Shown here: positions 1,380-47,136 of the stretch, piece by piece
How positions within the stretch are numbered: the first letter of the stretch is position 1
Layout of the letters: every line of letters begins with the position of its first letter
NCBI GenBank assembly: GCA_026418295.1
Contig: JAOABP010000002.1
Coordinates: forward strand, 26,244 to 90,243
DNA from: a candidate division WOR-3 bacterium
GTDB taxonomy: Bacteria > Hydrothermota > Tepidihabitantia > Tepidihabitantales > Tepidihabitantaceae
Direction of reading: 5' to 3'
Length of the DNA stretch: 64,000 bases
The notes under the pieces: model-generated
Database searches by the model: none
The model's input: only the letters and a program-made list of their open reading frames with translations
What the model was told of the DNA's origin: nothing
Program-made: the position numbers and the translations under genes

Positions 1380-1732
1380 GGGGGCGAATGGCTTCGACGG
1401 AGTGCCTGAGGGGCTCAGGGGCATAGCGAGGCTCCTCTGTTGCCTCGTTAATACCAACAGAGGAACTACAGCTGCCAACAGCAGCTACGCACTGGCTGCC
1501 TAAAGCGAGGTAGCCCCTGGACCGGCGAGTTTCACCCGGCGCCGGCTCCGGGTCTAACAGGGTGATCAAGACCGAATCTGTGTCTCAGGGGTTCGGTCGG
1601 ATTACTAACTGAGGCTGGTCTGTCCCCGCCTGTCAGTCGGCTAAGGGACAGATGAGATAAAAAGGACTGACTAACTATGTAGAACCTGAGCTCTGAACGC
1701 TTCGGACGCGGGTTCAATTCCCGCCGCCTCCA
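1380..1732 (+). ncRNA. ssrA: tmRNA (SsrA), tag peptide ending ...ANSSYALAA*
   Basis: 5' GGGGGCGAATGGCTTCGACGG and 3' GGACGCGGGTTCAATTCCCGCCGCCTCCA closely match the E. coli ssrA termini. Acceptor stem GGGGGCG/CGCCTCC pairs. In-frame tag reading frame …GCC AAC AGC AGC TAC GCA CTG GCT GCC TAA encodes ANSSYALAA. Confidence 0.93.
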
Positions 1733-1766
1733 TGGCACAAAGAAATGCAGGTTATATAACTTACTG

Positions 1767-3497: not shown

Positions 3498-4837
3498 GAA
3501 GGGATTACGAGGCGGTAATTCTGGTTGTTGATGATAATGCCGAGACGCTCGAAGTGCTGGAGCGTAATCTCAATGCCGCTGGTTATCAGGTGTGGACCGC
3601 CCAGAATGTCACTGATGCCGTAAAACTGCTGCAAAACGAGCACTTTGATGTTGTAATCACTGATATGAAAATGCCAGGAGCGTCGGGATTGGATCTGATA
3701 AAATATGTGCGCGAAAATTTGAACGACACTGAGGTGATGGTAATTACCGGTTATGCAACAGTGGAAAGTGCAGTGCAGGCAGTAAAGATCGGTGCTGAAG
3801 AGTATTTACCAAAGCCATTTACAGATGAGGAACTGTTGAATGCGGTGAAAAGAGTTCTGGAAAAACTCCGGATGCGGCGTGCCGCCGATGCCAGTAAGAT
3901 TACAATTCAGAAGGTTTATCCAGGACTGCTGGGTGAATCACCAGCGATGAAAAAAGTATTCAATGCGATTGAACGGGCAGCGCAGGTATCAGCCACAGTG
4001 CTGATTACCGGAGAGAGCGGTACCGGTAAGGAGCTGGTGGCACGGGCAATCCACTATGCCAGCAAAAGGGCATCAGCACCTTTTGTGCCGGTTAACTGCG
4101 GTGGAATTCCTGAGAGTCTTCTGGAGAGTGAACTGTTCGGCTATGTTAAAGGGGCTTTTACCGGCGCCACTGAGACCCGGGCGGGATTTTTCCAGACTGC
4201 AGAAGGTGGGTCAATATTTCTTGATGAAATCAGTGAGACCAGTCCTTCGATGCAGGTGAAACTGCTGCGGGTTCTTCAGGATAAAGAGGTCAGAATGCTG
4301 GGGGATTCCCGCGTTTACAGAGTGGATGTGAGGGTAATGGCAGCTACTAACAAGGATTTACTGGCATTGGTTCAAAAGGGGGCATTCCGCGAGGATCTGT
4401 TCTTTCGTTTGAATGTGCTGAATATTTCTGTTCCGCCACTCCGGGAAAGAGGGGAAGACATCTTTCTGCTTGCACGCTACTTTCTGGAGAAATTTGCCCG
4501 GGAGATGGGGCGTTCAGTCCCTCATTTCACAGATCAGGCGCTTGACGCATTCCGCCGGTATGAGTGGCCCGGTAATGTCCGGGAGCTGGAGAATCTGATA
4601 CAGCGACTACTGGTGATGGTGGATGGCGATAAGATTGATATTACTGACCTGCCGTCGCATATGCGGTTTTCAGTTGCCGCCAAGATTGATCTGACCCGGA
4701 CCTTAAAGGAAGTAGAGAGTGAATATATCCTGCAGGTGCTCAAGAGCGTTGGTGGAAATTTAACCCGCGCCGCCTCGATTCTTGGGATCGATCGTAAAAC
4801 CCTGAGAAATAAATTAAAGGAAAGCAAACCCGAATAA
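3494..4837 (+). CDS. sigma-54-dependent response regulator (NtrC/AtoC family enhancer-binding protein)
   Basis: Receiver domain (VVDDN…DVVITDMKMPG). AAA+ sigma-54 interaction domain with Walker A GESGTGKE, GAFTGA motif (KGAFTGATE) and FREDLFFRLNV. C-terminal Fis-type HTH. Confidence 0.93.
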   Translation: MRRDYEAVILVVDDNAETLEVLERNLNAAGYQVWTAQNVTDAVKLLQNEHFDVVITDMKMPGASGLDLIKYVRENLNDTEVMVITGYATVESAVQAVKIGAEEYLPKPFTDEELLNAVKRVLEKLRMRRAADASKITIQKVYPGLLGESPAMKKVFNAIERAAQVSATVLITGESGTGKELVARAIHYASKRASAPFVPVNCGGIPESLLESELFGYVKGAFTGATETRAGFFQTAEGGSIFLDEISETSPSMQVKLLRVLQDKEVRMLGDSRVYRVDVRVMAATNKDLLALVQKGAFREDLFFRLNVLNISVPPLRERGEDIFLLARYFLEKFAREMGRSVPHFTDQALDAFRRYEWPGNVRELENLIQRLLVMVDGDKIDITDLPSHMRFSVAAKIDLTRTLKEVESEYILQVLKSVGGNLTRAASILGIDRKTLRNKLKESKPE

Positions 4838-4993
4838 AACTCAGTGGGGATAATTTACCCGCCGGGAATTTTTGCCCCAAGGCTAAATTAAATCACTGCC
4901 CGGTAAAGCCATTCTAAATAAAACATCATTTTGTATCAAGCTGATAAATAACAACTTGCATGATCGATAAATTTCAGAATTTTACAGGTATGC

Positions 4994-5010
4994 CTGGCAT
5001 ACTTCGTGCA
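4994..5010 (+). promoter_or_regulatory. sigma-54 (-24/-12) promoter, TGGCAT-N7-TGCA
   Basis: cTGGCATacttcgTGCAt: GG at 4996-4997 and GC at 5008-5009, with canonical spacing relative to consensus TGGCAC-N5-TTGCW. Sits about 65 nt upstream of RBS AAAGGAGGA and the ATG at 5076. Follows an AT-rich stretch downstream of the EBP gene. Confidence 0.6.
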
Positions 5011-5075
5011 TAATACAAAAGTGCAAGTATGAGCAAACCGATGGAGAAAGGAAAACTTTAAAAAGGAGGAGCAAT

Positions 5076-5423
5076 ATGGCAGTTTCCACAAAGATTGCCA
5101 AAAAGGCAGCAAAAAAAAGCCAGCTAACGGCGCCAAAGTTCAGGAGAGCCGCAGAGGAGATGCAGGGACTGTGTATTACCTGCAATCATGCGGCGGGATG
5201 TGTCTTTCGCAAGCGCAATAAAAAACCGGTTCTGTTCTGTGAGGAGTTTGATTCCAGTGTGCCGACAGTTGAGGAGCAAATTGTGGAAGAATCATATCCT
5301 ACGGTAGAAGAGATGCGCGAATGGGATGAATTCAAAGGGCTATGTGTGAACTGTGAAAATCGTAACGATTGTATGATTCGCAACCGGGATATCGGGGTCT
5401 GGCATTGTGAGGAGTACCGGTAA
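5076..5423 (+). CDS. small Cys-rich protein with duplicated C-x2-C-x4-C-x10-11-C-EE motif and Lys-rich N-terminus (possibly DUF1540-like)
   Basis: Strong SD (AAAGGAGGA) 8 nt upstream of the ATG. Two repeats: GLCITCNHAAGCVFRKRNKKPVLFCEEF and GLCVNCENRNDCMIRNRDIGVWHCEEY. Lies 9 nt upstream of the GDH gene, so probably co-transcribed. Confidence 0.6.
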   Translation: MAVSTKIAKKAAKKSQLTAPKFRRAAEEMQGLCITCNHAAGCVFRKRNKKPVLFCEEFDSSVPTVEEQIVEESYPTVEEMREWDEFKGLCVNCENRNDCMIRNRDIGVWHCEEYR

Positions 5424-5432
5424 GGAGGACTT

Positions 5433-6755
5433 ATGGCAATAAATACCAGAAGTTCAGTCCGGATAAAACCGACATATAAGCAGACTGCTCCGGAGAAGAA
5501 ACGTCGCAGTGTATATGAAGATGTTGTAAGTCAGTTCAATCGTGCGGCAGATATCATGAATCTTGATTCCGGAGTTCGGAAAATACTGGGTACAACTATG
5601 AACGAAGTGGTCGTCCATTTTCCCGTGAAGATGGATGACGGGCGGATTGAAGTTTTCACCGGGTACCGGGTTCAGCACAACAACGCCCTTGGTCCGTTCA
5701 AGGGCGGATTGAGATACCATCCGGCGGTGGATATCGATGAGGTGCGGGCGCTGGCAACCTGGATGACTTGGAAGTCAGCAATTGTCAACATTCCATTCGG
5801 TGGCGCAAAAGGGGGAATCCAGCTGGACCCGACAAATTATTCTGTTGCCGAACTGGAACGGATTACCCGGCGATTCACATATGCGCTAGGCAATACGATT
5901 GGGCCTGATTACGACATACCTGCACCAGATGTCAACACCAATCCTCAAATCATGGCGTGGATTCTTGATACCTATCAGTCGATGATGCCCGCTTTTGAGC
6001 GTCACCGCTGTCTGGGGGTAGTTACTGGTAAGCCGATTGAATCCGGTGGCAGTGTCGGCCGGGACAAAGCGACGGGTCAGGGTGTGGTTTATCTGATTCA
6101 TGAGTGGGCAAAGGATCACAACTTTGACCTCAGCAAGGCAACCTACATCGTTCAGGGGTTTGGCAATGTTGGGTCCTGGTCAGCCCGGTTGATGAAGCCT
6201 CTGGGGGCAAAGTTGATTGCGGTTGAGGATGTTACCGGTGCGATCGCCGATCCGGAGGGAATTGATCCGGAAGATTTAACCCGTTATGTGCTGGAAAACC
6301 GCGGGGTCAAGGGATATCCCAAGGCAAAGCCGATATCTCATATTGAGTTTCTCCGCACGCGGGCTGATATCTTCATTCCTGCAGCTTTGGAGAATCAGAT
6401 TACGGCGGAAACTGCACCACTGCTCAATGTTCGTCTAGTTGCGGAAGGTGCCAACGGACCGACTGATCCGGAGGGGGATGCTATTCTCAATCAGCGGGGT
6501 ATTGATGTGCTTCCCGATATCCTCTGTAACTCCGGTGGTGTGATTGTCAGTTACTTTGAGTGGTTGCAGAATAAGCGGAGCGAATTCTGGGATCTTCAGG
6601 AGGTTGACTGCAAGCTGTACAAGAAGATTGTGGGCGGTTATCAGCGGGTCAAGGAGGCGGTGAGCAAGTACCGCGTTAACTGGCGGACAGCAGCGTATAT
6701 CGTTGCTCTGGCACGACTGGAGAAGGTGTACAAGGAAAGGGGTATTTTCCCGTAA
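5433..6755 (+). CDS. gdh: glutamate dehydrogenase, short (about 420-440 aa) Glu/Leu/Phe/Val dehydrogenase-family type
   Basis: GPFKGGLRYHP, PFGGAKGG, GNVGSW Rossmann, VAEGANGP motifs. N-terminal roughly 25-aa basic extension. Confidence 0.9.
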   Translation: MAINTRSSVRIKPTYKQTAPEKKRRSVYEDVVSQFNRAADIMNLDSGVRKILGTTMNEVVVHFPVKMDDGRIEVFTGYRVQHNNALGPFKGGLRYHPAVDIDEVRALATWMTWKSAIVNIPFGGAKGGIQLDPTNYSVAELERITRRFTYALGNTIGPDYDIPAPDVNTNPQIMAWILDTYQSMMPAFERHRCLGVVTGKPIESGGSVGRDKATGQGVVYLIHEWAKDHNFDLSKATYIVQGFGNVGSWSARLMKPLGAKLIAVEDVTGAIADPEGIDPEDLTRYVLENRGVKGYPKAKPISHIEFLRTRADIFIPAALENQITAETAPLLNVRLVAEGANGPTDPEGDAILNQRGIDVLPDILCNSGGVIVSYFEWLQNKRSEFWDLQEVDCKLYKKIVGGYQRVKEAVSKYRVNWRTAAYIVALARLEKVYKERGIFP

Positions 6756-17736: not shown

Positions 17737-20700
17737 TCAATCTGATGGCAGAAGTTCTGCCTCAACCTGCGGATAGAGCCGGTCAATCTGCCGTTGAATT
17801 TCAACTGTCTTTTTGATGGCGGTTACAATCCCGCAGTAGTGCCGGATTTCCTCGGTGGTCAGCTGTCTGCCGGTGCGGTCCTTGAGCCATTTGGCACACA
17901 CCTGATACCCGCCGATCTGATAGCTCCAGACCTCGGGTGGAACCGGTGCGAAAAATTTGCCGGCGTTGATGAACACCTGCCGGTCCTCATAGCGCACCTT
18001 TTCAATCAGGTTTGTTCCCCTGCCCTGGAACCGGACCGCGGGCGGGTCCAGTTCTGCCGATTTCAGCAGATGCAGGTCAGCGAGCCTTCTGCCCAGCTGT
18101 GCCAGCCGGCGGAAAAGCGGATAACTGCGGGTGAAGGGAATGCGGGGAAAGTCAAACTTGAGAAACTCCGCATATTTCTGCCGGTAGATATCTGAATACA
18201 GCACCGCATAGGTATAATAGAGAATGTCTTCAGGTGCGGGCGAGCGGTTATAGGCACTGCGGAGCCGGTCAAAAATTTCAGGTGCGATGTTCGGCTCCGG
18301 TCTGACCCCGCTCCTTCGCCGGACCGGGAAAAGCTCATCCCTGCCGGTGTCCGGATAGAGGTAAAGGGGGAATAATGATTCACATCCTTTATTGTCAGAG
18401 CGAATAACGCCGTCAGATATCATATGCTCTGTAATAAAAACATAATTGCAAGGATGTGTAGGAAGCATTTGCCTTCTTGTTATTAGCCCCAAATTCTCCT
18501 GCATCATATGCCGCATGACCTCCTCCCGCGGGCGCCAGACTACAGATTTGTGGTAATAAATATATCTCACATCAAATGGTCGATAGAGAATTTTTGTGAA
18601 GTACTTTTCCCAGTTTTCCACCCTCATCAATTCTTGGCGTGCCCTTGAAACCCGCCACATATAATTTTCTGTGAGCTCCAACCCCTTTTTTATAATCGCA
18701 TCCGAGAGGTCTTTATTGAGAAATGTCATTATTCTTGCCTTGAGAGGCTGGAGTTCAAAGTCAATTACAAAGTGGTCACGGGCAGTAACAATACCGGTCA
18801 CATTGACTGGGAAAATTGATGTTACTTGATAGAAACTCTCATACTCTATTTTACCCTTACCCCTCATTGGTACAAACAGGTAATAGGGTTTAACTGGTGC
18901 AACATCTCTCCAACTCGTTTTGTCAATGTCATTCTTCATGAGCCAACCGTACTTTCTATCTCTTGTTCCCCAGATTTCTGAATGGTGAACCCGGCAGGCG
19001 GTTGTGCCGTTACGGTATTTGACCATCAGGGCGATTGCCACTCCCTGCCGGATGTCAAACACATTTTCATCCTTTGAGCCGTCCGGACACCGCTCCTTCT
19101 TCAGGCTGTTGCCGTGCAGGTCCAGGATGTAGATTTCGTTGAAGGTCTTCATCAGCGACTGGCGCATGCCCCGGAAGGTCGGGTTGTCAAGGTAGCTGTG
19201 ATTGGTGATGAAGCCGACCACCCCTTCGCCTGCCTGGCTGATCTTCCACTGGGCAAAGCGGATGAACTTCACATAGTCATCCTGCAGCCAGACTTTTCTT
19301 TCTTTTAAAGGTTCGCCATCGACATGGTAGTAGCTCTGAACCCCGTCCCGGTCCTCCTTGAGGAAGTTGACCATTTCCGGCTTCATATTGGCGGAGATGC
19401 CGGAATAGGGCGGGTTGCCGATGATGACGAGAATCGGCGTTTCCCGCTTGACCCGGACCGCCAGCCGGGACTCGGTTGAGAGCGATGCCATTCCGGGCAG
19501 GCGGGTTTCGGGCAGGGTCTCCATCTCCAGCGTGTTGGTCAGATACAGTTTGACCCGCTCGTCCGGTTTTAACCGGTAGCCCAGCTCCTCAAGCAGAAAC
19601 GCCATCTTCAGGTGTCCCACCGCATAGGGCGCCATCATCAGTTCAAAGGCATAGAAGTTCTCCAGGATGTGCTCGCGGATGAAGTTTTCCTGTGCCCCTT
19701 CGCCATACCGTGCGGTAAACTCCTTGACCGCCAGTTTCGCCGCTTCGGCAAGGAAGGTCAGGGTGCCGGCAGCCGGGTCCAGGACTGTAACCGAGCTGTT
19801 TGCCAGTCCCTCCTGGCGGTTGAACCGGTCCTTGAGAATTTTGTTGACCGAGCGGACGATATAGGAGACCACCGGTTCGGGCGTATAATAGACACCGCGC
19901 CTTTCCCGGGTTTCCGGGTCGTAGACCGCAAGGAAGGTTTCATAGAAGTGGACCACCGGATCACTGCCCCTGCCTTCATGAAAATACTGGTGCAGGATGT
20001 TTTTGACATCGGTAACCGAGAGCACCTCTGCAATGTCGTCAATGATCCATTCCATCGGTTCCGGCAGGTCCTCGAGCGAGATATAGCGGAAGATGTCACG
20101 CAGGATGCCGATTGTGTGCGGGATATTGTCATAGGCAAGCCGGCGGTTGAATTCGCCGGTGGTGCGGGTGCGGGCGGCAAACAGTCCGTAGGTGATGGTC
20201 TGGGCATAAAGGTCGGCAAAGTCTTCCGGGGTGAGGGTGGTGATGAGATACTGCCGGAAGGCTTCGTAAAATCCGGCAAGGGTGCCGGTCTGATCAGCAA
20301 GCTCCTGCTGGAGCTGGCGGGCGATTACCTCATCGCGGAGAAAGCGGGTGCGGCGGGCAAGTTCGCGGGCAAGGGTTTCCGCATCCAGCACGCGGGGCAG
20401 AGAGAAGGCGAAAAACTGTTCGAGCAGGAGGTTGAGTTCTTCCGGCTGTTCCAGTGGTGGCACGAGTCTGAGCCTGTGGGCAGCAAACGGTCTGCCGAGG
20501 AGCGCCTTTTTTACCAGTTTACCTTGGCGGTAGAGCCGGAATTCAAGAAAGTTGGTCAGTATCAGATTGGGGAATGTATCCCGGTAGCGGGTAAACTGTT
20601 CGGACTCTTCAATCCGGTCCAGATTGTCAATTGTTGGCGATTTGGCTTCAATGTAACCGACGATGTGCTGTCTGCCATCCCAGATCCGGAAGTCGGGGTT

Positions 20701-20898
20701 GCCGGCGTCGGTTCCCCTGGGCTGAACGGTGATTTGGATTTTGCTTCTGCCCGATTGAACCGCCCATTCATTGAGCAGTCCGGCAAGAAGCGGATAATAA
20801 CTTTCCTCCCGGGCATCACCGCGGTGAATGAGGGCGCTGATCTCCTTGAGATAGTTCCGGTAGCGGGCAGGTTCCAGCACCTGTTTAGTATTGCCCAA
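17737..20898 (-). CDS. Type IIG/IIL restriction-modification enzyme, MmeI-like fused endonuclease-gamma-class N6-adenine methyltransferase-TRD
   Basis: N-terminal PD-(D/E)xK-like DGRQHIVGYIEAK. MTase motif I VLDPAAGTLTF and motif IV IIGNPPYSG. About 1053 aa single polypeptide. Start codon appears to be TTG (or GTG 6 codons later). Confidence 0.75.
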   Translation of the reverse strand: MGNTKQVLEPARYRNYLKEISALIHRGDAREESYYPLLAGLLNEWAVQSGRSKIQITVQPRGTDAGNPDFRIWDGRQHIVGYIEAKSPTIDNLDRIEESEQFTRYRDTFPNLILTNFLEFRLYRQGKLVKKALLGRPFAAHRLRLVPPLEQPEELNLLLEQFFAFSLPRVLDAETLARELARRTRFLRDEVIARQLQQELADQTGTLAGFYEAFRQYLITTLTPEDFADLYAQTITYGLFAARTRTTGEFNRRLAYDNIPHTIGILRDIFRYISLEDLPEPMEWIIDDIAEVLSVTDVKNILHQYFHEGRGSDPVVHFYETFLAVYDPETRERRGVYYTPEPVVSYIVRSVNKILKDRFNRQEGLANSSVTVLDPAAGTLTFLAEAAKLAVKEFTARYGEGAQENFIREHILENFYAFELMMAPYAVGHLKMAFLLEELGYRLKPDERVKLYLTNTLEMETLPETRLPGMASLSTESRLAVRVKRETPILVIIGNPPYSGISANMKPEMVNFLKEDRDGVQSYYHVDGEPLKERKVWLQDDYVKFIRFAQWKISQAGEGVVGFITNHSYLDNPTFRGMRQSLMKTFNEIYILDLHGNSLKKERCPDGSKDENVFDIRQGVAIALMVKYRNGTTACRVHHSEIWGTRDRKYGWLMKNDIDKTSWRDVAPVKPYYLFVPMRGKGKIEYESFYQVTSIFPVNVTGIVTARDHFVIDFELQPLKARIMTFLNKDLSDAIIKKGLELTENYMWRVSRARQELMRVENWEKYFTKILYRPFDVRYIYYHKSVVWRPREEVMRHMMQENLGLITRRQMLPTHPCNYVFITEHMISDGVIRSDNKGCESLFPLYLYPDTGRDELFPVRRRSGVRPEPNIAPEIFDRLRSAYNRSPAPEDILYYTYAVLYSDIYRQKYAEFLKFDFPRIPFTRSYPLFRRLAQLGRRLADLHLLKSAELDPPAVRFQGRGTNLIEKVRYEDRQVFINAGKFFAPVPPEVWSYQIGGYQVCAKWLKDRTGRQLTTEEIRHYCGIVTAIKKTVEIQRQIDRLYPQVEAELLPSD

Positions 20899-21254
20899 TA
20901 CGGACCGGATGTCAATTTAAGACAACATTTGTTTTTCTCTGACCATAATGCCCCTGTTAAGTTAGAGTCATTTTTTCCCGCCGATTTCACAGCCGGCAGT
21001 GGGGCGGAAATGGCGGTTGCGGTGGAAGTGACGGTTTTGCCGAGGGTTGGCGGGCGAATTGCGTTCGCGGGTGAGGTTTTTCGGGGCTGTACCCCGGGCA
21101 GTTCCCCTCACCGTGTCGGCAGGGAGGATGCCGGCTGGGGATGATGGCGGTGGATTTGCCGTTGTGGCGGTGCGGGTGACACCGGACCGGAGTGCAAGGT
21201 CAGGTTTGACAAGCCGGTCTGGCGTCAATATCCTTATCTGGACAGGCCCGGTCT

Positions 21255-34658: not shown

Positions 34659-35229
34659 GCCAGTTGCCCTGGCGCAGAAGTTCATAAAGCATGACCGCAG
34701 CAGCAGTGGCAACATTGAGTGAGTTCTTAAAGCCGAACACCGGTATTTCTACTAATTCGTCGCAGAGCTGCAGCGCCGCCTGAGACACGCCAAGCGCTTC
34801 ATTGCCCAGGACGACTGCTACTGGAAAATAATAGGTTACTGCATAGTACGGTTTGGCACCGACAACGGTTTCCAGCCCGATGATCTGTACTTGCTTTAGT
34901 TTCAATTCGTGCAGTGCGTCCGTGATGGAATCATAGTGGCAGGTGGGAACGGTGTTAGTGGTCCCCAGTGCGGTTTGCGCCAGCTTCCGATGCGGCGGAT
35001 GGGCAGTGTAACCACAGGTAATTACCATCTGGGCGCGGGTGGCATCTGCAAGTCGGAAAATAGCTCCGACATTAAAGGCGCTGCGGAGATTATCAAGAAC
35101 AATGTAAACCGGGTGGCGGGGTAAACGCAGAAACTCTTCCTGAGGCAGATTGGAATCCCGGGAGCGAACTTCGTAGAATGTTTCGATTCCGTCGGGGGCA
35201 GGCAGATGTTTGGGGTGTTTATGTTTCAC
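34642..35229 (-). CDS. TrmH/SpoU-family RNA 2'-O-methyltransferase
   Basis: VLDNLRSAFNVGAIFRLADA…VVLGNEALGVS…NSLNVATAAAVMLYE. Confidence 0.85.
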   Translation of the reverse strand: MKHKHPKHLPAPDGIETFYEVRSRDSNLPQEEFLRLPRHPVYIVLDNLRSAFNVGAIFRLADATRAQMVITCGYTAHPPHRKLAQTALGTTNTVPTCHYDSITDALHELKLKQVQIIGLETVVGAKPYYAVTYYFPVAVVLGNEALGVSQAALQLCDELVEIPVFGFKNSLNVATAAAVMLYELLRQGNWLSPPV

Positions 35230-35848
35230 TGGCGGTTTCCTTCTTCATTTGTTCGTTAACAGCTCTGATGCGTTCGAAAGCTGTGCGCAGAGTTTTCCCT
35301 GAGGCAATAGCACCATGACCGCACCAGATGACTACGCGGGCGTATCGGAATGCCTTAGCGGTGGCACGGGCAAGTTCTCTTGAACCGGCAGGAAAGAAGG
35401 GAATTGCGGATACTGCGAGCGTGCGCTGCCGTTTTAAAACCGAAATCACTGCGTCAGGAGTATGTTCAAGAGAAAATCGGATTATCGTTCCGGGGTGGGA
35501 ATGGAGTATCCATTTTTCCTGAGGGCGATACCGAGCGATAATCCGCTGGGAGAGAATGTGAGCGCAGATTTCTTCAGTGGGCAGCGCATCTGCGGGTTTG
35601 ACGGTGAAACGGCAGCCAGTGTGGGCGGGATAGACAAGACAAAGATAGGGGAGAGGATTGTGGTAAATCTGTTTCATACGAGCACCAGAAATTTTGGTCA
35701 GTAACATTTGTCCCAGACGCAGCGAAAAATTGCCGGCATGAGATGGCGCCCATTTCAGGCGGTGAAGCAGACCGGCAACTTCTGATATCTGCCGGATAGC
35801 AGAAAGATTAATACTCCCATTAATCAGATGATTGACTAAATTCACCAA
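35219..35848 (-). CDS. class II aldolase/adducin-family protein
   Basis: WAPSHAGNFSLR, metal-binding His pattern HSHP…HGAIASG. Confidence 0.65.
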   Translation of the reverse strand: MVNLVNHLINGSINLSAIRQISEVAGLLHRLKWAPSHAGNFSLRLGQMLLTKISGARMKQIYHNPLPYLCLVYPAHTGCRFTVKPADALPTEEICAHILSQRIIARYRPQEKWILHSHPGTIIRFSLEHTPDAVISVLKRQRTLAVSAIPFFPAGSRELARATAKAFRYARVVIWCGHGAIASGKTLRTAFERIRAVNEQMKKETASET

Positions 35849-35938
35849 TTAATATGATGTTAAATTTTTAAGGCAGATGGTCAAGATTGAATGCCGGCAC
35901 GGCGTTGACTTGAAATGGTCAGACGTTAGTTTCTTGAT

Positions 35939-37009
35939 ATGCGCGTGCTGATAACTGCGGGGGAAAAATCAGGGTTTGTGCTCGCAGATCTGCTCAGCAA
36001 AAAAATCAGAGATATAAGCAGTGAGATTGAAATTTGCTATCTTGATCTTACTGATGTAGCCGGTGATGCCTTTGGATTCACTCCCAAGATACTGCCGAAA
36101 TTGCTTCAGGGGCGAAGGTTGCTTAAGCGTTTGCTCTCTTCTGCCCTTAATTGCCAGCCGGATCTGGCAGTGCTGATTTCCATGCCGACTGTTAATTTGC
36201 ATTTAGGGAAGAAATTGCGGGCAACAGGGCTAACGACAGTTTTTATCGCGCCACCGCAATGCTGGGCTTGGGGTGAATGGCGGGTGAGATTGCTGAAGCA
36301 GGCTGCAGATCAGGTAATATGTTTATTCAGTTTTGAAGAACATTTTTTCCGGCAGGCTGGTATACGAGCAGTTTATTTCGGTTATCCGTTCTACGACGCG
36401 TTGCAGTTGGAGATGAGCAGAAGGGAGGTGTATGAAATGCTGGGGATTCCGGAAGACGAAGAATATATCGTTTTACTGCCGGGAACAAGAAAGGATGAAA
36501 TAGATTTTCATCAACTGCTCTTTATCCGCGTATTTCAGCATTTACAAATGAGACATCCGAGGCTTCATGGTGTCATTGTTGGGGGTAAGGAAAGCGTATT
36601 GCCACCGGGTGTAGTGCAGGTCGGATTGCAACACCGTTATGATGTCTTTTCTTGGGCACGGGCAGCACTGACAGTATCGGGGACAGTCACAGCAGAACTG
36701 GCGATTCTGGGAATTCCGATGGTGGTGTCTTATCACCTGGAGCCGGTGAGCAGGTTTCTCGTCCGGATTTTCGTCCGAACCCCCTATTTTGCACTGCCCA
36801 ATATCATTGCAGGGGAGGCAGCTGTTCCGGAGTATCTTAACCCGGATCAGAAACAGTTGATCAGTCAGATTTCTAGACTGCTTGATGAATGCGATTATCG
36901 TCAGACAGTAATTGCAAAGCTGGGGGCAGTCAGAAGGAAACTTGAACCTGCAGGTGCTACCGAGCAGATCGCCCGGCTGATTGTCGGTCTGCTATCGGGG
37001 AAATCCTGA
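35939..37009 (+). CDS. lpxB: lipid-A-disaccharide synthase
   Basis: MRVLITAGEKSG N-terminus. LLPGTRKDEI (LLPGSR-like motif). ALPNIIAGEAAVPEYL near the C-terminus. Confidence 0.85.
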   Translation: MRVLITAGEKSGFVLADLLSKKIRDISSEIEICYLDLTDVAGDAFGFTPKILPKLLQGRRLLKRLLSSALNCQPDLAVLISMPTVNLHLGKKLRATGLTTVFIAPPQCWAWGEWRVRLLKQAADQVICLFSFEEHFFRQAGIRAVYFGYPFYDALQLEMSRREVYEMLGIPEDEEYIVLLPGTRKDEIDFHQLLFIRVFQHLQMRHPRLHGVIVGGKESVLPPGVVQVGLQHRYDVFSWARAALTVSGTVTAELAILGIPMVVSYHLEPVSRFLVRIFVRTPYFALPNIIAGEAAVPEYLNPDQKQLISQISRLLDECDYRQTVIAKLGAVRRKLEPAGATEQIARLIVGLLSGKS

Positions 37010-45396: not shown

Positions 45397-45625
45397 GGAA
45401 AAAATTGATTTTGAGCAGGCGCTTGCCGAGCTGGAGAAGATAGTCAAGCAACTGGAGAATGGCAGTCTGCCGCTTGAGCAGTCGCTGGCGCTGTTTGAAC
45501 GCGGGGTGAAGCTGGCGCGGCAGTGTCGGGAAAAACTGCAGGCGGCAGAGCTCAAGATTAATAAGCTGATTGAGGAACGGGAAGGGGAGCTGAACGAGGA
45601 GCCATTTTCCGAAGAACCGGATTAG
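45377..45625 (+). CDS. xseB: exodeoxyribonuclease VII small subunit
   Basis: FEQALAELEKIVKQLENGSLPLEQSLALFERGVKLARQCREKL. Confidence 0.92.
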   Translation: MGNKNSEEKIDFEQALAELEKIVKQLENGSLPLEQSLALFERGVKLARQCREKLQAAELKINKLIEEREGELNEEPFSEEPD

Positions 45626-45789
45626 AACTCGCTCATATCGTAGCCCAGAATCTTGGATTTCTTGAACTCGGCAACCTTGTTGCCCTTGTCATCATAGAGG
45701 ACATAATTCTCGCCCTCTTCCACAATCTTTTCGGCGATGATGTTCACACGAAAAACAGGATTGGAATCCAGATAGATGTGAAAGGTCAT
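45622..45789 (-). CDS. unannotated small ORF (55 aa) MTFHIYLDSNPVFRVNIIAEKIVEEGENYVLYDDKGNKVAEFKKSKILGYDMSEF
   Basis: Below the 60-aa cutoff of the supplied track; found by manual reverse-strand translation. ATG start; stop overlaps the xseB stop convergently by 4 nt. Confidence 0.35.
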   Translation of the reverse strand: MTFHIYLDSNPVFRVNIIAEKIVEEGENYVLYDDKGNKVAEFKKSKILGYDMSEF

Positions 45790-46309
45790 AAACCAGCCCC
45801 TTTCTTTTTTGTATGAGCATACCTTTTCACAGGCTGGCTGTCAACAACGTCCCCTTAGCCAAAATTCCTATTTACCGGTCCGGTTATTCCAAAGCATTCC
45901 GGATGGAGAGCGGTAATGGGGGAAAGCCGCGGGGAAACCTGATGGAGAGAGGAGCCATGTCATCGAACGGCAGTCCGGACTCAGTAATAAACTTGAGTGT
46001 GACTCCGGACTGCCAATGGTGATTTGTGGCGGGTCATATGACCCAGGTCGGTGAAAAAGCCAGCCTTTTAATTACTCCGGATGAACCCCCAATATGCCAG
46101 TTTGTGCATTGGTATTATATAATTGCAATAAATTCATATAGATAAATTTAATTGTTACAATATTTATATGTGCAGATTTGTACACATATTCCGTTCCTGA
46201 GTCAGTTCAGATTTTCCGTTTGCAGGAGATATTTGGCGATTGCAGGACAAGTTATTGTGTATTTGGTTCTGGCTGATGGGTGAACACTATTCCAGCCTTG
46301 AATTTTCGT

Positions 46310-46338
46310 TTGACAAAATGCATACCTGAGTGTATAAT
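46310..46338 (+). promoter_or_regulatory. near-perfect sigma-70 promoter TTGACA-17nt-TGtTATAAT (extended -10)
   Basis: TTGACA 46310-46315 and TATAAT 46333-46338. RBS AGGGAGGGAG, then ATG at 46387. Confidence 0.6.
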
Positions 46339-46386
46339 TATATATATAGGGAAGGAATTCCTGTTTAGGAAGGGAGGGAGCTAGTT

Positions 46387-47136
46387 ATGGAGGATATTAG
46401 AAAACTGATTCAAAATCTGCGGGATAAAAACCCGTGTGTACGTAGCGGCGCAGCGTGGGCGCTGGGCGCGACGAAGGACAGTTGTGCGGTTGAACCGCTG
46501 ATTGAGGCGCTCAAGGATGCTCACTGGGATGTGCGGCGCGGTGCAGCGATGGCGTTGGGGATGCTTAAGGATGCGCGGGCGGTCGATGCCCTGATTGCTG
46601 CTTTGAAGGATGAGGACTGGGATGTGCGCTGGAGTGCGGCATGGGCACTGGGTGCGATCAAGGATGCCCGTGCGGTTGAACCGCTGATTGAGGCGCTTAA
46701 GGATGAGCATGCCTGGGTACGCTGTTATGCAGCTGAGGCGCTGGGAAAGATCGGTGATGCGCGGGCGGTGGATGCGCTGATTAACGCACTGCAGGATGAA
46801 GATGCTGCAGTCCGGCGGAGTGCTGCGTGGGCACTTGGATCGCTTAAGGATATCCGGGCGGTAGAGTCACTGATTGGAGTCCTGCGGGATGAGGATCCGG
46901 ATGCCCGGGAGCGGGCGGCGTGGGCGCTGGTGAAACTCGGTTCACGGATTGTTGAGATGCTGATGACCGCAATGCGGCACAGTGATCCGACGGTGCGTCA
47001 GAGCGCTGCCTATGTACTGCGGGCGGTAAAGGACGCCAATTCCTTTGAATCGTTGATGAGTGCACTGCGGGATAACGATTCTGAACTCCGCGACCGGATC
47101 GCTGAGGCGCTGAATGCCATTGCCCAGATCAGGTAG
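46387..47136 (+). CDS. HEAT (PBS-lyase-type) repeat protein
   Basis: Seven or more tandem roughly 31-aa repeats of the form [33 protein letters not shown]. Confidence 0.85.
46423..46990 (+). repeat. in-frame tandem 93-bp DNA repeats (HEAT repeat units)
   Basis: Recurrent GATGCGCGGGCGGT(C/G)GATGC(C/G)CTGATT…AAGGATGAGGACTGGGATGTGCG blocks with 93-nt periodicity. Confidence 0.7.

What the first reader, a model, noticed from the sequence alone, without database searches (positions are those of the whole stretch)
18370..18990. AT-rich block inside the RM gene coincides with the predicted target-recognition domain
Within an otherwise about 60% GC gene, roughly 600 nt (aa 636-843 of the minus-strand protein) is conspicuously AT-rich (runs such as ataaaaacataattgcaaggatgtgtagg). 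It is flanked by GC-rich conserved MTase and C-terminal segments. In MmeI-family enzymes this position is the TRD, which is known to be swapped between homologs. The compositional discontinuity is what a recent TRD exchange from a low-GC donor would leave.
Basis: partly seen in the sequence, partly recalled or inferred. Interest (0 to 1): 0.55.

Follow-up and report, generated by a model that had tools for sequence, protein, structure and literature searches.

The report
Swapped DNA-reading head in restriction enzyme
The AT-rich stretch encodes the part of a single-chain restriction-modification enzyme that reads the DNA target, and it has been replaced as a cassette relative to the same gene in a related genome; this is a clear but ordinary case of how such enzymes change specificity.

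Summary
Window 18370-18990 has GC 0.409, the lowest 621-nt stretch in the 64 kb. GC3 falls from about 0.70 to 0.44 inside the 1053-aa minus-strand ORF (17737-20898).

The protein is a DrdV-like Type IIL/IIG nuclease-methyltransferase with a Type ISP-type specificity domain. It is not an MmeI-family member by sequence.

The block (aa 650-842) is the sequence-reading half of the TRD. It carries recognition loops IV-VI and the "jaw", and every DrdV TRD base contact maps inside it.

A syntenic ortholog (L001) is 87-93% identical in DNA on both sides. It shows no DNA similarity across 18373-18949, apart from a 56-nt hinge. Sub-modules on either side of the hinge have different nearest relatives and reassort across the family. 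So a cassette exchange is well supported.

"Recent, from a low-GC donor" is only partly supported:
- The best whole-block relative is 55-61% identical.
- The ortholog's alternative block is also AT-rich.
- The dip is family-wide (74 of 76 genes, mean -0.052). This gene is an extreme case at -0.155.

Verdict: a new member of a known kind, of modest interest.

The parts
17737..20898 (-). Complete ORF (1053 aa plus stop) of a single-chain Type IIL/IIG restriction-modification enzyme, DrdV-like
   Evidence: Searches give the ORF. PADLOC REase_MTase_IIG scores 874 bits, E 5e-263. phmmer to DrdV 7lo5 is colinear, query 16-786 to DrdV 9-759 and query 885-946 to DrdV 841-899, E 3.5e-48. The family profile gives E 7.8e-67.
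19963..20898 (-). N-terminal PD-(D/E)xK nuclease and helical connector (aa 1-312)
   Evidence: Residues E31, D69, E84 and K86 align with the DrdV catalytic residues E25, D64, E79 and K81. They are invariant in the 22-sequence alignment.
18952..19962 (-). Gamma-class N6-adenine methyltransferase domain (aa 313-649), with motif I DPAAGTLTF (374-382) and motif IV NPPY (495-498)
   Evidence: Pfam N6_Mtase and Eco57I. The motifs are invariant columns. DrdV MTase residues 295-635 align here.
19288..19329 (-). MTase 'Loop II' patch (aa 524-537). It is AT-rich (GC 0.40, GC3 0.36), differs from the ortholog (about half of the 14 residues plus a one-residue indel, aa identity 0.50) and aligns with the DrdV base contacts Q485, K486 and K488.
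   Evidence: Its class (no 'NP' before xW) co-occurs with the TRD Loop IV motif 'NVT' in 33 of 34 family members (Fisher p = 3e-14). The class spans 10 backbone clusters.
19008..19217 (-). Tract nearly identical to the ortholog (3 mismatches in 210 nt, against 11.6% backbone divergence), host-like in GC3, abutting the cassette on its 5' side
   Evidence: binomial P about 6e-9 for at most 1 mismatch in 180 nt; the minimum observed is 2. Synonymous sites are not conserved here across the family.
18535..18949 (-). Cassette part 1 (aa 650-788): the MTase-TRD linker, Loop IV and the three-helix 'jaw'. GC is 0.39-0.40 and there is no DNA similarity to the ortholog.
   Evidence: blastn gap. DrdV N673 and LlaGI N1228 map to A706, and DrdV R721 maps to about E754. 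Helices 716-727, 733-739 and 750-758 have pLDDT 79-89. The best relatives of aa 701-785 reach 74-76% (P0009, L002, P0007, P0003).
18479..18534 (-). Conserved hinge inside the cassette (aa 789-806, RPREEVMRHMMQENLGLI). It is 91% identical in DNA to the ortholog and has host-like GC3 (0.78).
   Evidence: DrdV Y764 (Loop V region) maps to its 5' edge.
18373..18478 (-). Cassette part 2 (aa 807-842): the Loop VI module, the most AT-rich piece (GC 0.36, GC3 0.26).
   Evidence: DrdV D803 and K807 and LlaBIII N1360 map to V831-C839 and R833. The motif SDGVIRSDNKG.ES is shared with P0103, P0017, P0021, P0014 and L004 at 77-80%, a different set of relatives from part 1.
17740..18372 (-). Conserved C-terminal part of the TRD (aa 843-1053): core helices and the 'guide', which do not read sequence. 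GC is host-like (0.53-0.60).
   Evidence: Pfam Type_ISP_C covers 694-1033. DNA identity to the ortholog is 90%. The subdomain roles come from PMC4872093.

Best explanation
The gene encodes a DrdV-like single-chain restriction-modification enzyme. It has a nuclease, a connector, an adenine methyltransferase and a Type ISP-type specificity domain that clamp the DNA target.

The AT-rich block encodes the part of the specificity domain that touches the bases: loops IV, V and VI plus the jaw. In this lineage that reading head, together with a small base-reading loop of the methyltransferase, differs wholesale from the one in the orthologous gene of a related genome. The rest of the gene and its housekeeping neighbours are about 87-93% identical in DNA.

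The head was therefore replaced by recombination at conserved joints. These joints are the end of the methyltransferase, a short hinge in the middle of the block, and the LFPLYLYP motif. The two halves of the head behave as separately exchangeable modules across the family. The two orthologs almost certainly recognise different sequences.

The low GC has two sources. One is a family-wide tendency of this head to be AT-richer than its own gene. The other is an excess that fits modules drawn from the family's largely mid- or low-GC pool and not yet adapted to this GC-rich host.

Shown: the anatomy, the mosaic, the module reassortment and the composition. Inferred: the change of specificity, the recombination mechanism, and the origin and age of the modules.
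For: Identity of the enzyme:
- PADLOC IIG, 874 bits.
- Pfam Type_ISP_C, E 5e-85.
- Colinear match to DrdV, and MTase-TRD match to LlaBIII and LlaGI.

The block is the reading head:
- DrdV TRD contacts N673, R721, Y764, D803 and K807 map to query residues 706, about 754, 790/791, about 831 and about 839.
- LlaGI N1228 and LlaBIII N1360 map to residues 706 and 833.

Replacement:
- L001 has the same gene order: the RM gene, plsY, gpsA, merR and fhs.
- blastn gives 86.7% over 21616-18950, nothing over 18949-18373 except the 56-nt hinge at 91%, 90% over 18372-17099, and 92.6% over 17093-12934.
- In the block, third-position identity at conserved residues is 0.25-0.40, which equals the family background. 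In the flanks it is about 0.8.

Modules:
- P0003 shares aa 701-785 at 74% but aa 808-842 at only 17%.
- P0007 has the window's first module and the ortholog's second.
- Across 246 sequences, backbone identity correlates with the C-terminal part (rho 0.85) but hardly with the Loop VI module (rho 0.10).

Composition follows the mosaic. GC3 is 0.36 in Loop II, 0.79 in the tract, 0.41 in m0, 0.45 in mA, 0.78 in the hinge, 0.26 in mB and 0.71 in C1. The dip of -0.155 is 2.9 sd beyond the family mean of -0.052.

The identical protein is seen on four independent contigs.
Against: - No donor was found. The best whole-block relative is 55-61% identical and the best sub-module relatives are 74-80%.
- The ortholog's alternative head is also AT-rich, with GC 0.43 and mB GC3 0.21. 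It is therefore unclear which lineage changed.
- The head is AT-richer than its gene in 74 of 76 genes from many phyla, and the Loop VI module even in AT-rich hosts. Part of the signal is thus intrinsic and does not indicate transfer.
- Among GC-rich family members alone, this gene's module dips are only about 1-2.3 sd from the mean.
- Recognition sequences are unknown, so a change of specificity is an inference.
Confidence: 0.8

Rival explanations
1. There was one recent import of the whole TRD block directly from a low-GC organism's homolog, and the AT-richness is simply the donor's composition.
For: The block's GC (0.409) and GC3 (0.435) match the family-wide mean for this block (0.39-0.40), while the backbone is host-like at 0.565. 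The nearest block relatives with DNA sit in contigs of 0.32-0.43 GC: L002, L003, L004, L083 and L163. The breakpoints are sharp.
Against: The two halves of the block have different nearest relatives, and a host-like hinge that is 91% identical to the ortholog separates them. This is not one contiguous foreign piece. No relative of the whole block exceeds 61%. About 79% of sampled family genes are below 0.48 GC anyway, so low-GC neighbours are the base rate. The ortholog's other allele is equally AT-rich. The dip also exists in AT-rich hosts.
Confidence: 0.25
2. No import from outside. The two heads are old alleles kept in a recombining GC-rich population, with the defence specificity held as a balanced polymorphism. 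The AT-richness is wholly intrinsic to this hypervariable region, for example because modules that only move as whole units escape GC-biased gene conversion or codon selection.
For: The dip is family-wide, in 74 of 76 genes. The Loop VI module is lower in GC3 in 113 of 125 genes across all host GC classes. Both alleles at this locus are AT-rich. A 210-nt tract next to the block is nearly identical between the two lineages, which shows that they still exchange DNA at this locus.
Against: The dip here is about three times the family mean. Module classes are shared with distant backbones from other phyla at 74-80% identity, so modules do cross lineages. A variable segment just outside the block (aa 850-900) has normal GC of 0.588, so variability alone does not give AT-richness.
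Confidence: 0.2
3. The block diverged in place by rapid point mutation under diversifying selection, with no cassette replacement.
For: The region is the most variable part of the family and is plausibly under selection for new specificities.
Against: Synonymous positions in the block are saturated to the family background, while the flanks are about 80-96% identical at such positions. The edges are abrupt. Sub-modules are closer to distant homologs (74-80%) than to the ortholog (30-32%).
Confidence: 0.03
4. The block is a metagenome assembly chimera that joins reads of a low-GC homolog into a GC-rich gene.
For: The window comes from a metagenome assembly, and the family is common in metagenomes.
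Against: The identical 1053-aa protein occurs on four contigs of 0.2-1 Mb. An independent dataset (L001, seen in two samples) shows the same AT-rich architecture with another head. The reading frame and all scaffold motifs are intact. No sampled homolog could supply the block.
Confidence: 0.02

Closest known systems
DrdV (Type IIL restriction-modification enzyme; PDB 7LO5/7LVV; bioRxiv 10.1101/2021.01.06.425610)
   Same: It has the same length class (1029 against 1053 aa) and the same colinear order of PD-ExK nuclease, helical connector, gamma N6A methyltransferase and C-terminal TRD. The nuclease and NPPY catalytic residues are aligned. The TRD base contacts fall in the region equivalent to the AT-rich block.
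   Different: It is a distant relative, found only by HMM. Residues aligned to the DrdV contacts differ (for example N673 against A706), so the target is not CATGNAC. The recognition sequence and cleavage offset here are unknown.
[quoted passage not shown]
   Same: The MTase-TRD unit is homologous (PF18135, E 5e-85). The TRD can be read as core, jaw and guide with loops IV-VI. As in that family, the jaw and loops are the least conserved parts and the guide is the most conserved.
   Different: There is no RecA-like ATPase motor or coupler. The protein is about 500 aa shorter and the alignment covers only LlaBIII 843-1519. It is therefore not a translocating Type ISP enzyme.
MmeI family (Type IIL; PMC2731913, PMC2731914, PMC4833311)
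   Same: The overall logic matches: a single chain with nuclease, MTase and TRD, one-strand modification, and specificity altered by changes in the TRD.
   Different: Sequence membership is not met. MmeI_Mtase scores 17.2 bits, below the cut-off of 27, there are no MmeI_N, hel, TRD or C hits, and no MmeI chain appears among the PDB matches.
Allelic TRD replacement and 'domain movement' in Type I hsdS and Type III mod genes (for example Helicobacter pylori; PMC3983042)
   Same: Discrete TRD homology groups are flanked by conserved sequence and exchanged by homologous recombination, giving combinatorial specificities. Here, two modules separated by a conserved hinge reassort.
   Different: The modules here lie inside one TRD of a single-chain enzyme that reads a contiguous asymmetric site, not two TRDs of a bipartite S subunit. 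A methyltransferase loop co-varies with one module.

Membership tests
DrdV-like Type IIL/IIG single-chain RM enzymes | Colinear nuclease, connector, gamma N6A MTase and TRD in one chain of about 1000-1050 aa | tested here: met
   phmmer to 7lo5_A aligns query 16-786 to 9-759 and query 885-946 to 841-899, E 3.5e-48. The profile gives E 7.8e-67. PADLOC REase_MTase_IIG scores 874 bits.
DrdV-like Type IIL/IIG single-chain RM enzymes | PD-(D/E)xK nuclease catalytic residues and the MTase motifs I and IV | tested here: met
   E31, D69, E84 and K86 align to DrdV E25, D64, E79 and K81. DPAAGTLTF and NPPY are invariant.
DrdV-like Type IIL/IIG single-chain RM enzymes | Methylates one strand of an asymmetric site and cuts at a fixed distance downstream | not testable with these tools
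   This needs a methylome or biochemistry.
Type ISP (LlaGI/LlaBIII) | Type ISP C-terminal specificity domain | tested here: met
   PF18135, residues 694-1033, profile positions 1-338 of 342, E 5e-85.
Type ISP (LlaGI/LlaBIII) | RecA-like SF2 ATPase motor and coupler between the nuclease and the MTase | tested here: not met
   There is no helicase or ATPase Pfam hit. The alignment to LlaBIII covers only residues 843-1519 of 1578.
MmeI family | Matches to the MmeI domain models (MmeI_N, MmeI_hel, MmeI_Mtase, MmeI_TRD, MmeI_C) | tested here: not met
   Only MmeI_Mtase hits, at 17.2 bits against a cut-off of 27. No MmeI chain appears in the PDB searches.
TRD cassette exchange (allelic replacement of recognition domains) | Orthologous conserved flanks with a non-homologous central segment and sharp edges | tested here: met
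   Synteny is shown. The blastn gap is 18373-18949, between flanks of 87% and 90% identity.
TRD cassette exchange (allelic replacement of recognition domains) | Discrete homology groups of the variable segment shared across unrelated backbones | tested here: met
   The classes span 10 and 6 backbone clusters.
TRD cassette exchange (allelic replacement of recognition domains) | A different recognition sequence for different cassettes | not testable with these tools
   Inferred from the mapping of base-contact residues.
Recent horizontal import from a low-GC donor | A near-identical segment in a donor lineage of lower GC | tested here: not met
   The best whole-block relative is 55-61% identical in four searches.
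Recent horizontal import from a low-GC donor | A compositional anomaly specific to this gene, not to the domain family | tested here: inconclusive
   The dip is family-wide (74 of 76 genes, mean -0.052). This gene is at -0.155, z = -2.9. Against GC-rich members alone it lies only 1-2.3 sd from the mean.

The most novel reading that the evidence does not exclude
The DrdV-like family, with thousands of members in more than 15 phyla, may use a combinatorial recognition code built from separately exchangeable modules. One module would be MTase Loop II together with TRD Loop IV and the jaw, and the other would be TRD Loop VI. Each would read part of the target, so specificity could be predicted or engineered by module swapping. 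The universally AT-rich third positions of the Loop VI module, even in AT-rich hosts, would then mark sequence that moves only as whole units and so escapes the forces that keep GC up in the recombining backbone. The window carries a module combination seen in no other sampled member.
Probability: 0.3. Interest if true: 0.55.

Novelty: new member of a known kind. Interest (0 to 1): 0.3.

Why it matters
This locus is a clean natural experiment. Two orthologous enzymes in the same chromosomal place differ essentially only in the base-reading head and one methyltransferase loop.

Expressing both enzymes, and chimeras split at the hinge, would show which module reads which target positions in an uncharacterised but very widespread Type IIL family. 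That would help motif prediction from sequence and the engineering of new specificities.

For genome scanning, the case shows that an AT-rich dip inside such a gene marks the recognition head. It is not, by itself, proof of a recent foreign import.

Tried and rejected
- A block-only search of the 5.8-billion-protein index returned only short, TRD-only proteins at 52% identity or less over most of the block (one 154-aa fragment reached 61% over 56% of it). It did not return the identical full-length protein, so it was useless for finding a donor.
- A block-only metagenome scan and the exhaustive representative search found no close relative. The donor question stays open.
- NCBIfam has no model for the protein.
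- The AlphaFold model from the 22-sequence alignment was poor, with pLDDT 53 and pTM 0.38. No fold search was run, and only the confidently predicted jaw helices were used.
- A promoter and terminator scan found nothing inside the block, so an internal promoter is not the reason for the AT-richness.
- No sizeable ORF on either strand overlaps the block.
- Elevated synonymous conservation at the cassette flanks across the family, as would mark a recombination anchor, was tested and not found.
- MmeI membership and Type ISP membership were both rejected.
- The idea that low-GC neighbours of the block point to a low-GC donor was set aside, because about 79% of the family sample is low-GC anyway.
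Full report
**Observation.** The stretch 18370-18990 has GC 0.409. The window mean is 0.540, and 621-nt windows have an sd of 0.039. It is the lowest such window in the whole 64 kb. It lies inside a 1053-codon ORF on the minus strand, 17737-20898. In codons 651-850, GC is 0.39-0.45 and GC3 is 0.36-0.56. Elsewhere in the gene, GC3 is 0.60-0.90. In the block 39% of codons end in G or C, against 70% in the rest of the gene (Fisher p = 2e-14). With the gene's own codon usage, the block's amino acids would give GC 0.513. So about one third of the dip is amino-acid composition and two thirds is codon choice.

**What the gene is.**
- Pfam finds N6_Mtase (313-499), Eco57I (491-595) and the Type ISP C-terminal specificity domain (694-1033, E 5e-85). 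The MmeI methyltransferase model scores only 17.2 bits, below its cut-off of 27, and no other MmeI model hits.
- PADLOC calls it a Type IIG restriction enzyme-methyltransferase, at 874 bits. NCBIfam has no model.
- Among solved structures, the full length is colinear with DrdV (7LO5, 1029 aa). The MTase-TRD part matches the Type ISP enzymes LlaBIII and LlaGI.
- The DrdV nuclease residues E25, D64, E79 and K81 align with E31, D69, E84 and K86. Motifs DPAAGTLTF and NPPY are present and invariant in relatives.
- There is no ATPase motor.
- The enzyme is therefore a DrdV-like Type IIL/IIG enzyme with a Type ISP-type TRD. It is not an MmeI-family member by sequence.
- The gene sits among housekeeping genes: plsY, gpsA, a MerR regulator and fhs on one side, and a phosphoglycerate mutase on the other.

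**What the block encodes.**
- In DrdV the TRD spans residues 636-1029, and its base contacts are N673, R721, Y764, D803 and K807. Sequence and profile alignments place these at query A706, about E754, between P790 and R791, about V831 and about C839.
- LlaGI N1228 (Loop IV) aligns with A706, and LlaBIII N1360 (Loop VI) aligns with R833.
- In the Type ISP description the TRD has three parts. The core carries loops IV-VI. The jaw is a poorly conserved three-helix bundle. The guide is well conserved and does not read sequence.
- The jaw aligns with query residues about 718-762. The otherwise poor AlphaFold model confidently predicts three helices there.
- The block (aa 650-842) is thus the sequence-reading half of the TRD. 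Residues 843-1053 are scaffold, and they are conserved and host-like in GC.

**Evidence for replacement.**
- The closest homolog after the identical protein is P0002, at 79% identity.
- Its contig L001 has the same gene order as the window.
- DNA identity is 86.7% from 21616 to 18950. There is no detectable similarity from 18949 to 18373, except a 56-nt island (18479-18534) at 91%. Identity is 90% from 18372 to 17099 and 92.6% through the neighbouring genes.
- Protein identity is about 91% and 88% in the flanks and about 39% in the block.
- At residues that are conserved, third-position identity is 0.25-0.40 in the block, which equals the family background. In the flanks it is about 0.8. This rules out in-place divergence.
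- The identical protein occurs on four large contigs, and L001 comes from an independent dataset. A chimeric assembly is therefore unlikely.

**Fine structure.** Composition follows the mosaic closely.

| Segment | GC3 |
|---|---|
| Conserved tract before the block | 0.79 |
| aa 650-700 | 0.41 |
| aa 701-785 | 0.45 |
| Hinge island (aa 789-806) | 0.78 |
| Loop VI module (aa 808-842) | 0.26 |
| Next segment (aa 843-880) | 0.71 |

- The two modules have different nearest relatives. Residues 701-785 are 74-76% identical to P0009, L002, P0007 and P0003. Residues 808-842 are 77-80% identical to L004, P0103, P0017 and P0021.
- P0003 shares the first module at 74% but the second at only 17%. P0007 combines the window's first module with the ortholog's second.
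- Across 246 family sequences, pairwise identity of the backbone tracks the C-terminal part (rho 0.85) but hardly the Loop VI module (rho 0.10). The two modules are nearly uncorrelated with each other (rho 0.12).
- The window's combination of classes occurs in no other sampled sequence.

**A second, small patch.**
- Residues 524-537 (19288-19329) align with the DrdV methyltransferase base contacts Q485, K486 and K488.
- The patch differs from the ortholog at about half of its 14 residues (aa identity 0.50) and has a one-residue indel. It is AT-rich, with GC3 0.36.
- Its class co-occurs with the Loop IV motif NVT in 33 of 34 family members (Fisher p = 3e-14). The class is spread over 10 backbone clusters.
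- Between this patch and the cassette lies a 210-nt tract (19008-19217) with only 3 mismatches to the ortholog, against 11.6% in the backbone. The family shows no synonymous conservation there. This looks like a recent allelic conversion that stopped at the heterologous head, but that reading is an inference.

**Is the AT-richness a mark of a recent low-GC donor?** Only in part.
- Searches with the block alone found nothing closer than 55-61% identity. These covered the protein index, metagenome contigs and the exhaustive representative library.
- The ortholog's different head is also AT-rich, at 0.43 against 0.555, with Loop VI module GC3 of 0.21.
- In 76 complete family genes chosen by conserved motifs from more than 15 phyla, the block is lower in GC than the rest of its own gene in 74. 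The mean difference is -0.052, the GC3 difference is -0.082, and the slope is about 1.
- The Loop VI module is lower in GC3 in 113 of 125 genes, including 33 of 36 AT-rich ones. Transfer from a mixed pool cannot explain that result.
- The window's dip of -0.155 is 2.9 sd beyond the family mean, and only one of the 76 genes is as extreme. Among GC-rich members alone, its module dips are 1-2.3 sd from the mean.
- Its block GC equals the family-wide mean for this block, which fits modules taken from the family pool. By the regression, the donor backbone would have been at about 0.46 GC or below.
- A variable segment just outside the block has normal GC of 0.588, so variability alone is not the cause.

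**Comparison with what is known.** Replacement of recognition domains between conserved flanks is well documented for Type I S subunits and Type III mod genes (PMC3983042). Changes of specificity through the TRD are documented for the MmeI family (PMC2731913, PMC2731914). The variable loops and jaw against a conserved guide are described for Type ISP enzymes (PMC4872093). This locus is a clear new example in the DrdV-like family, not a new kind of system.

**Verdict.** However, the family label was wrong, the exchange involves at least two modules plus a methyltransferase loop, and neither recency nor a low-GC donor is shown. Novelty: a new member of a known kind. Interest: 0.3.

Noticed in passing
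L164 2440-6281; L165 2342-6323 (relatives, not the window): Many family members are split into an N-terminal nuclease-MTase gene (about 620-640 aa) and a separate TRD-only gene (about 410-470 aa). Residue 1 of the TRD-only protein maps to query aa about 583-637 (median 629), roughly 15 codons upstream of the cassette edge. In L164 a nucleotidyltransferase/HEPN pair sits between the two halves, and in L165 an unknown 250-aa gene does.
   Followed up: partly
window 19288-19329: A 14-codon AT-rich patch lies in the methyltransferase base-reading loop, outside the reported block. It differs from the ortholog and co-varies across the family with the TRD Loop IV class, in 33 of 34 members.
   Followed up: yes
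window 19008-19217: A 210-nt tract has only 3 mismatches to the ortholog, although the backbone is 11.6% divergent. It lies directly 5' of the cassette. It may be a recent allelic conversion stopped by heterology.
   Followed up: partly
family-wide (loci L002-L161), equivalent of window 18373-18478: The Loop VI module has lower GC3 than its own gene's backbone in every host GC class, including AT-rich hosts, in 113 of 125 genes. This is unexplained.
   Followed up: partly
L082-L161: The enzyme family occurs at 52-66% identity in MAGs of more than 15 phyla, including Planctomycetota, Nitrospirota, Chloroflexota, Thermodesulfobacteriota, Bacteroidota and Patescibacteria. This indicates wide horizontal spread of a very conserved backbone.
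   Followed up: no
window 20887-20915: A promoter-like site (TTGACA, 17 nt, AATACT) overlaps the mechanical TTG start at 20898. Relatives align only from about residue 14, so the true start codon is probably a few codons downstream.
   Followed up: no
window 1380-1735: A tmRNA gene with tag peptide ANSSYALAA.
   Followed up: no
window 45625-46700: This is another low-GC stretch (about 0.42) with no ORF of 80 aa or more between 45625 and 46387. It is followed by three tandem copies of a 93-nt unit (46405-46700, 60-70% alike) inside ORF 46387-47136.
   Followed up: no
window 4392-5665 and 35425-36600: These are further low-GC stretches (minima 0.42 and 0.44) in the window. ORFs 35222-35848 and 35930-37006 have the lowest GC3 of the window, at 0.46-0.48.
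   Followed up: no
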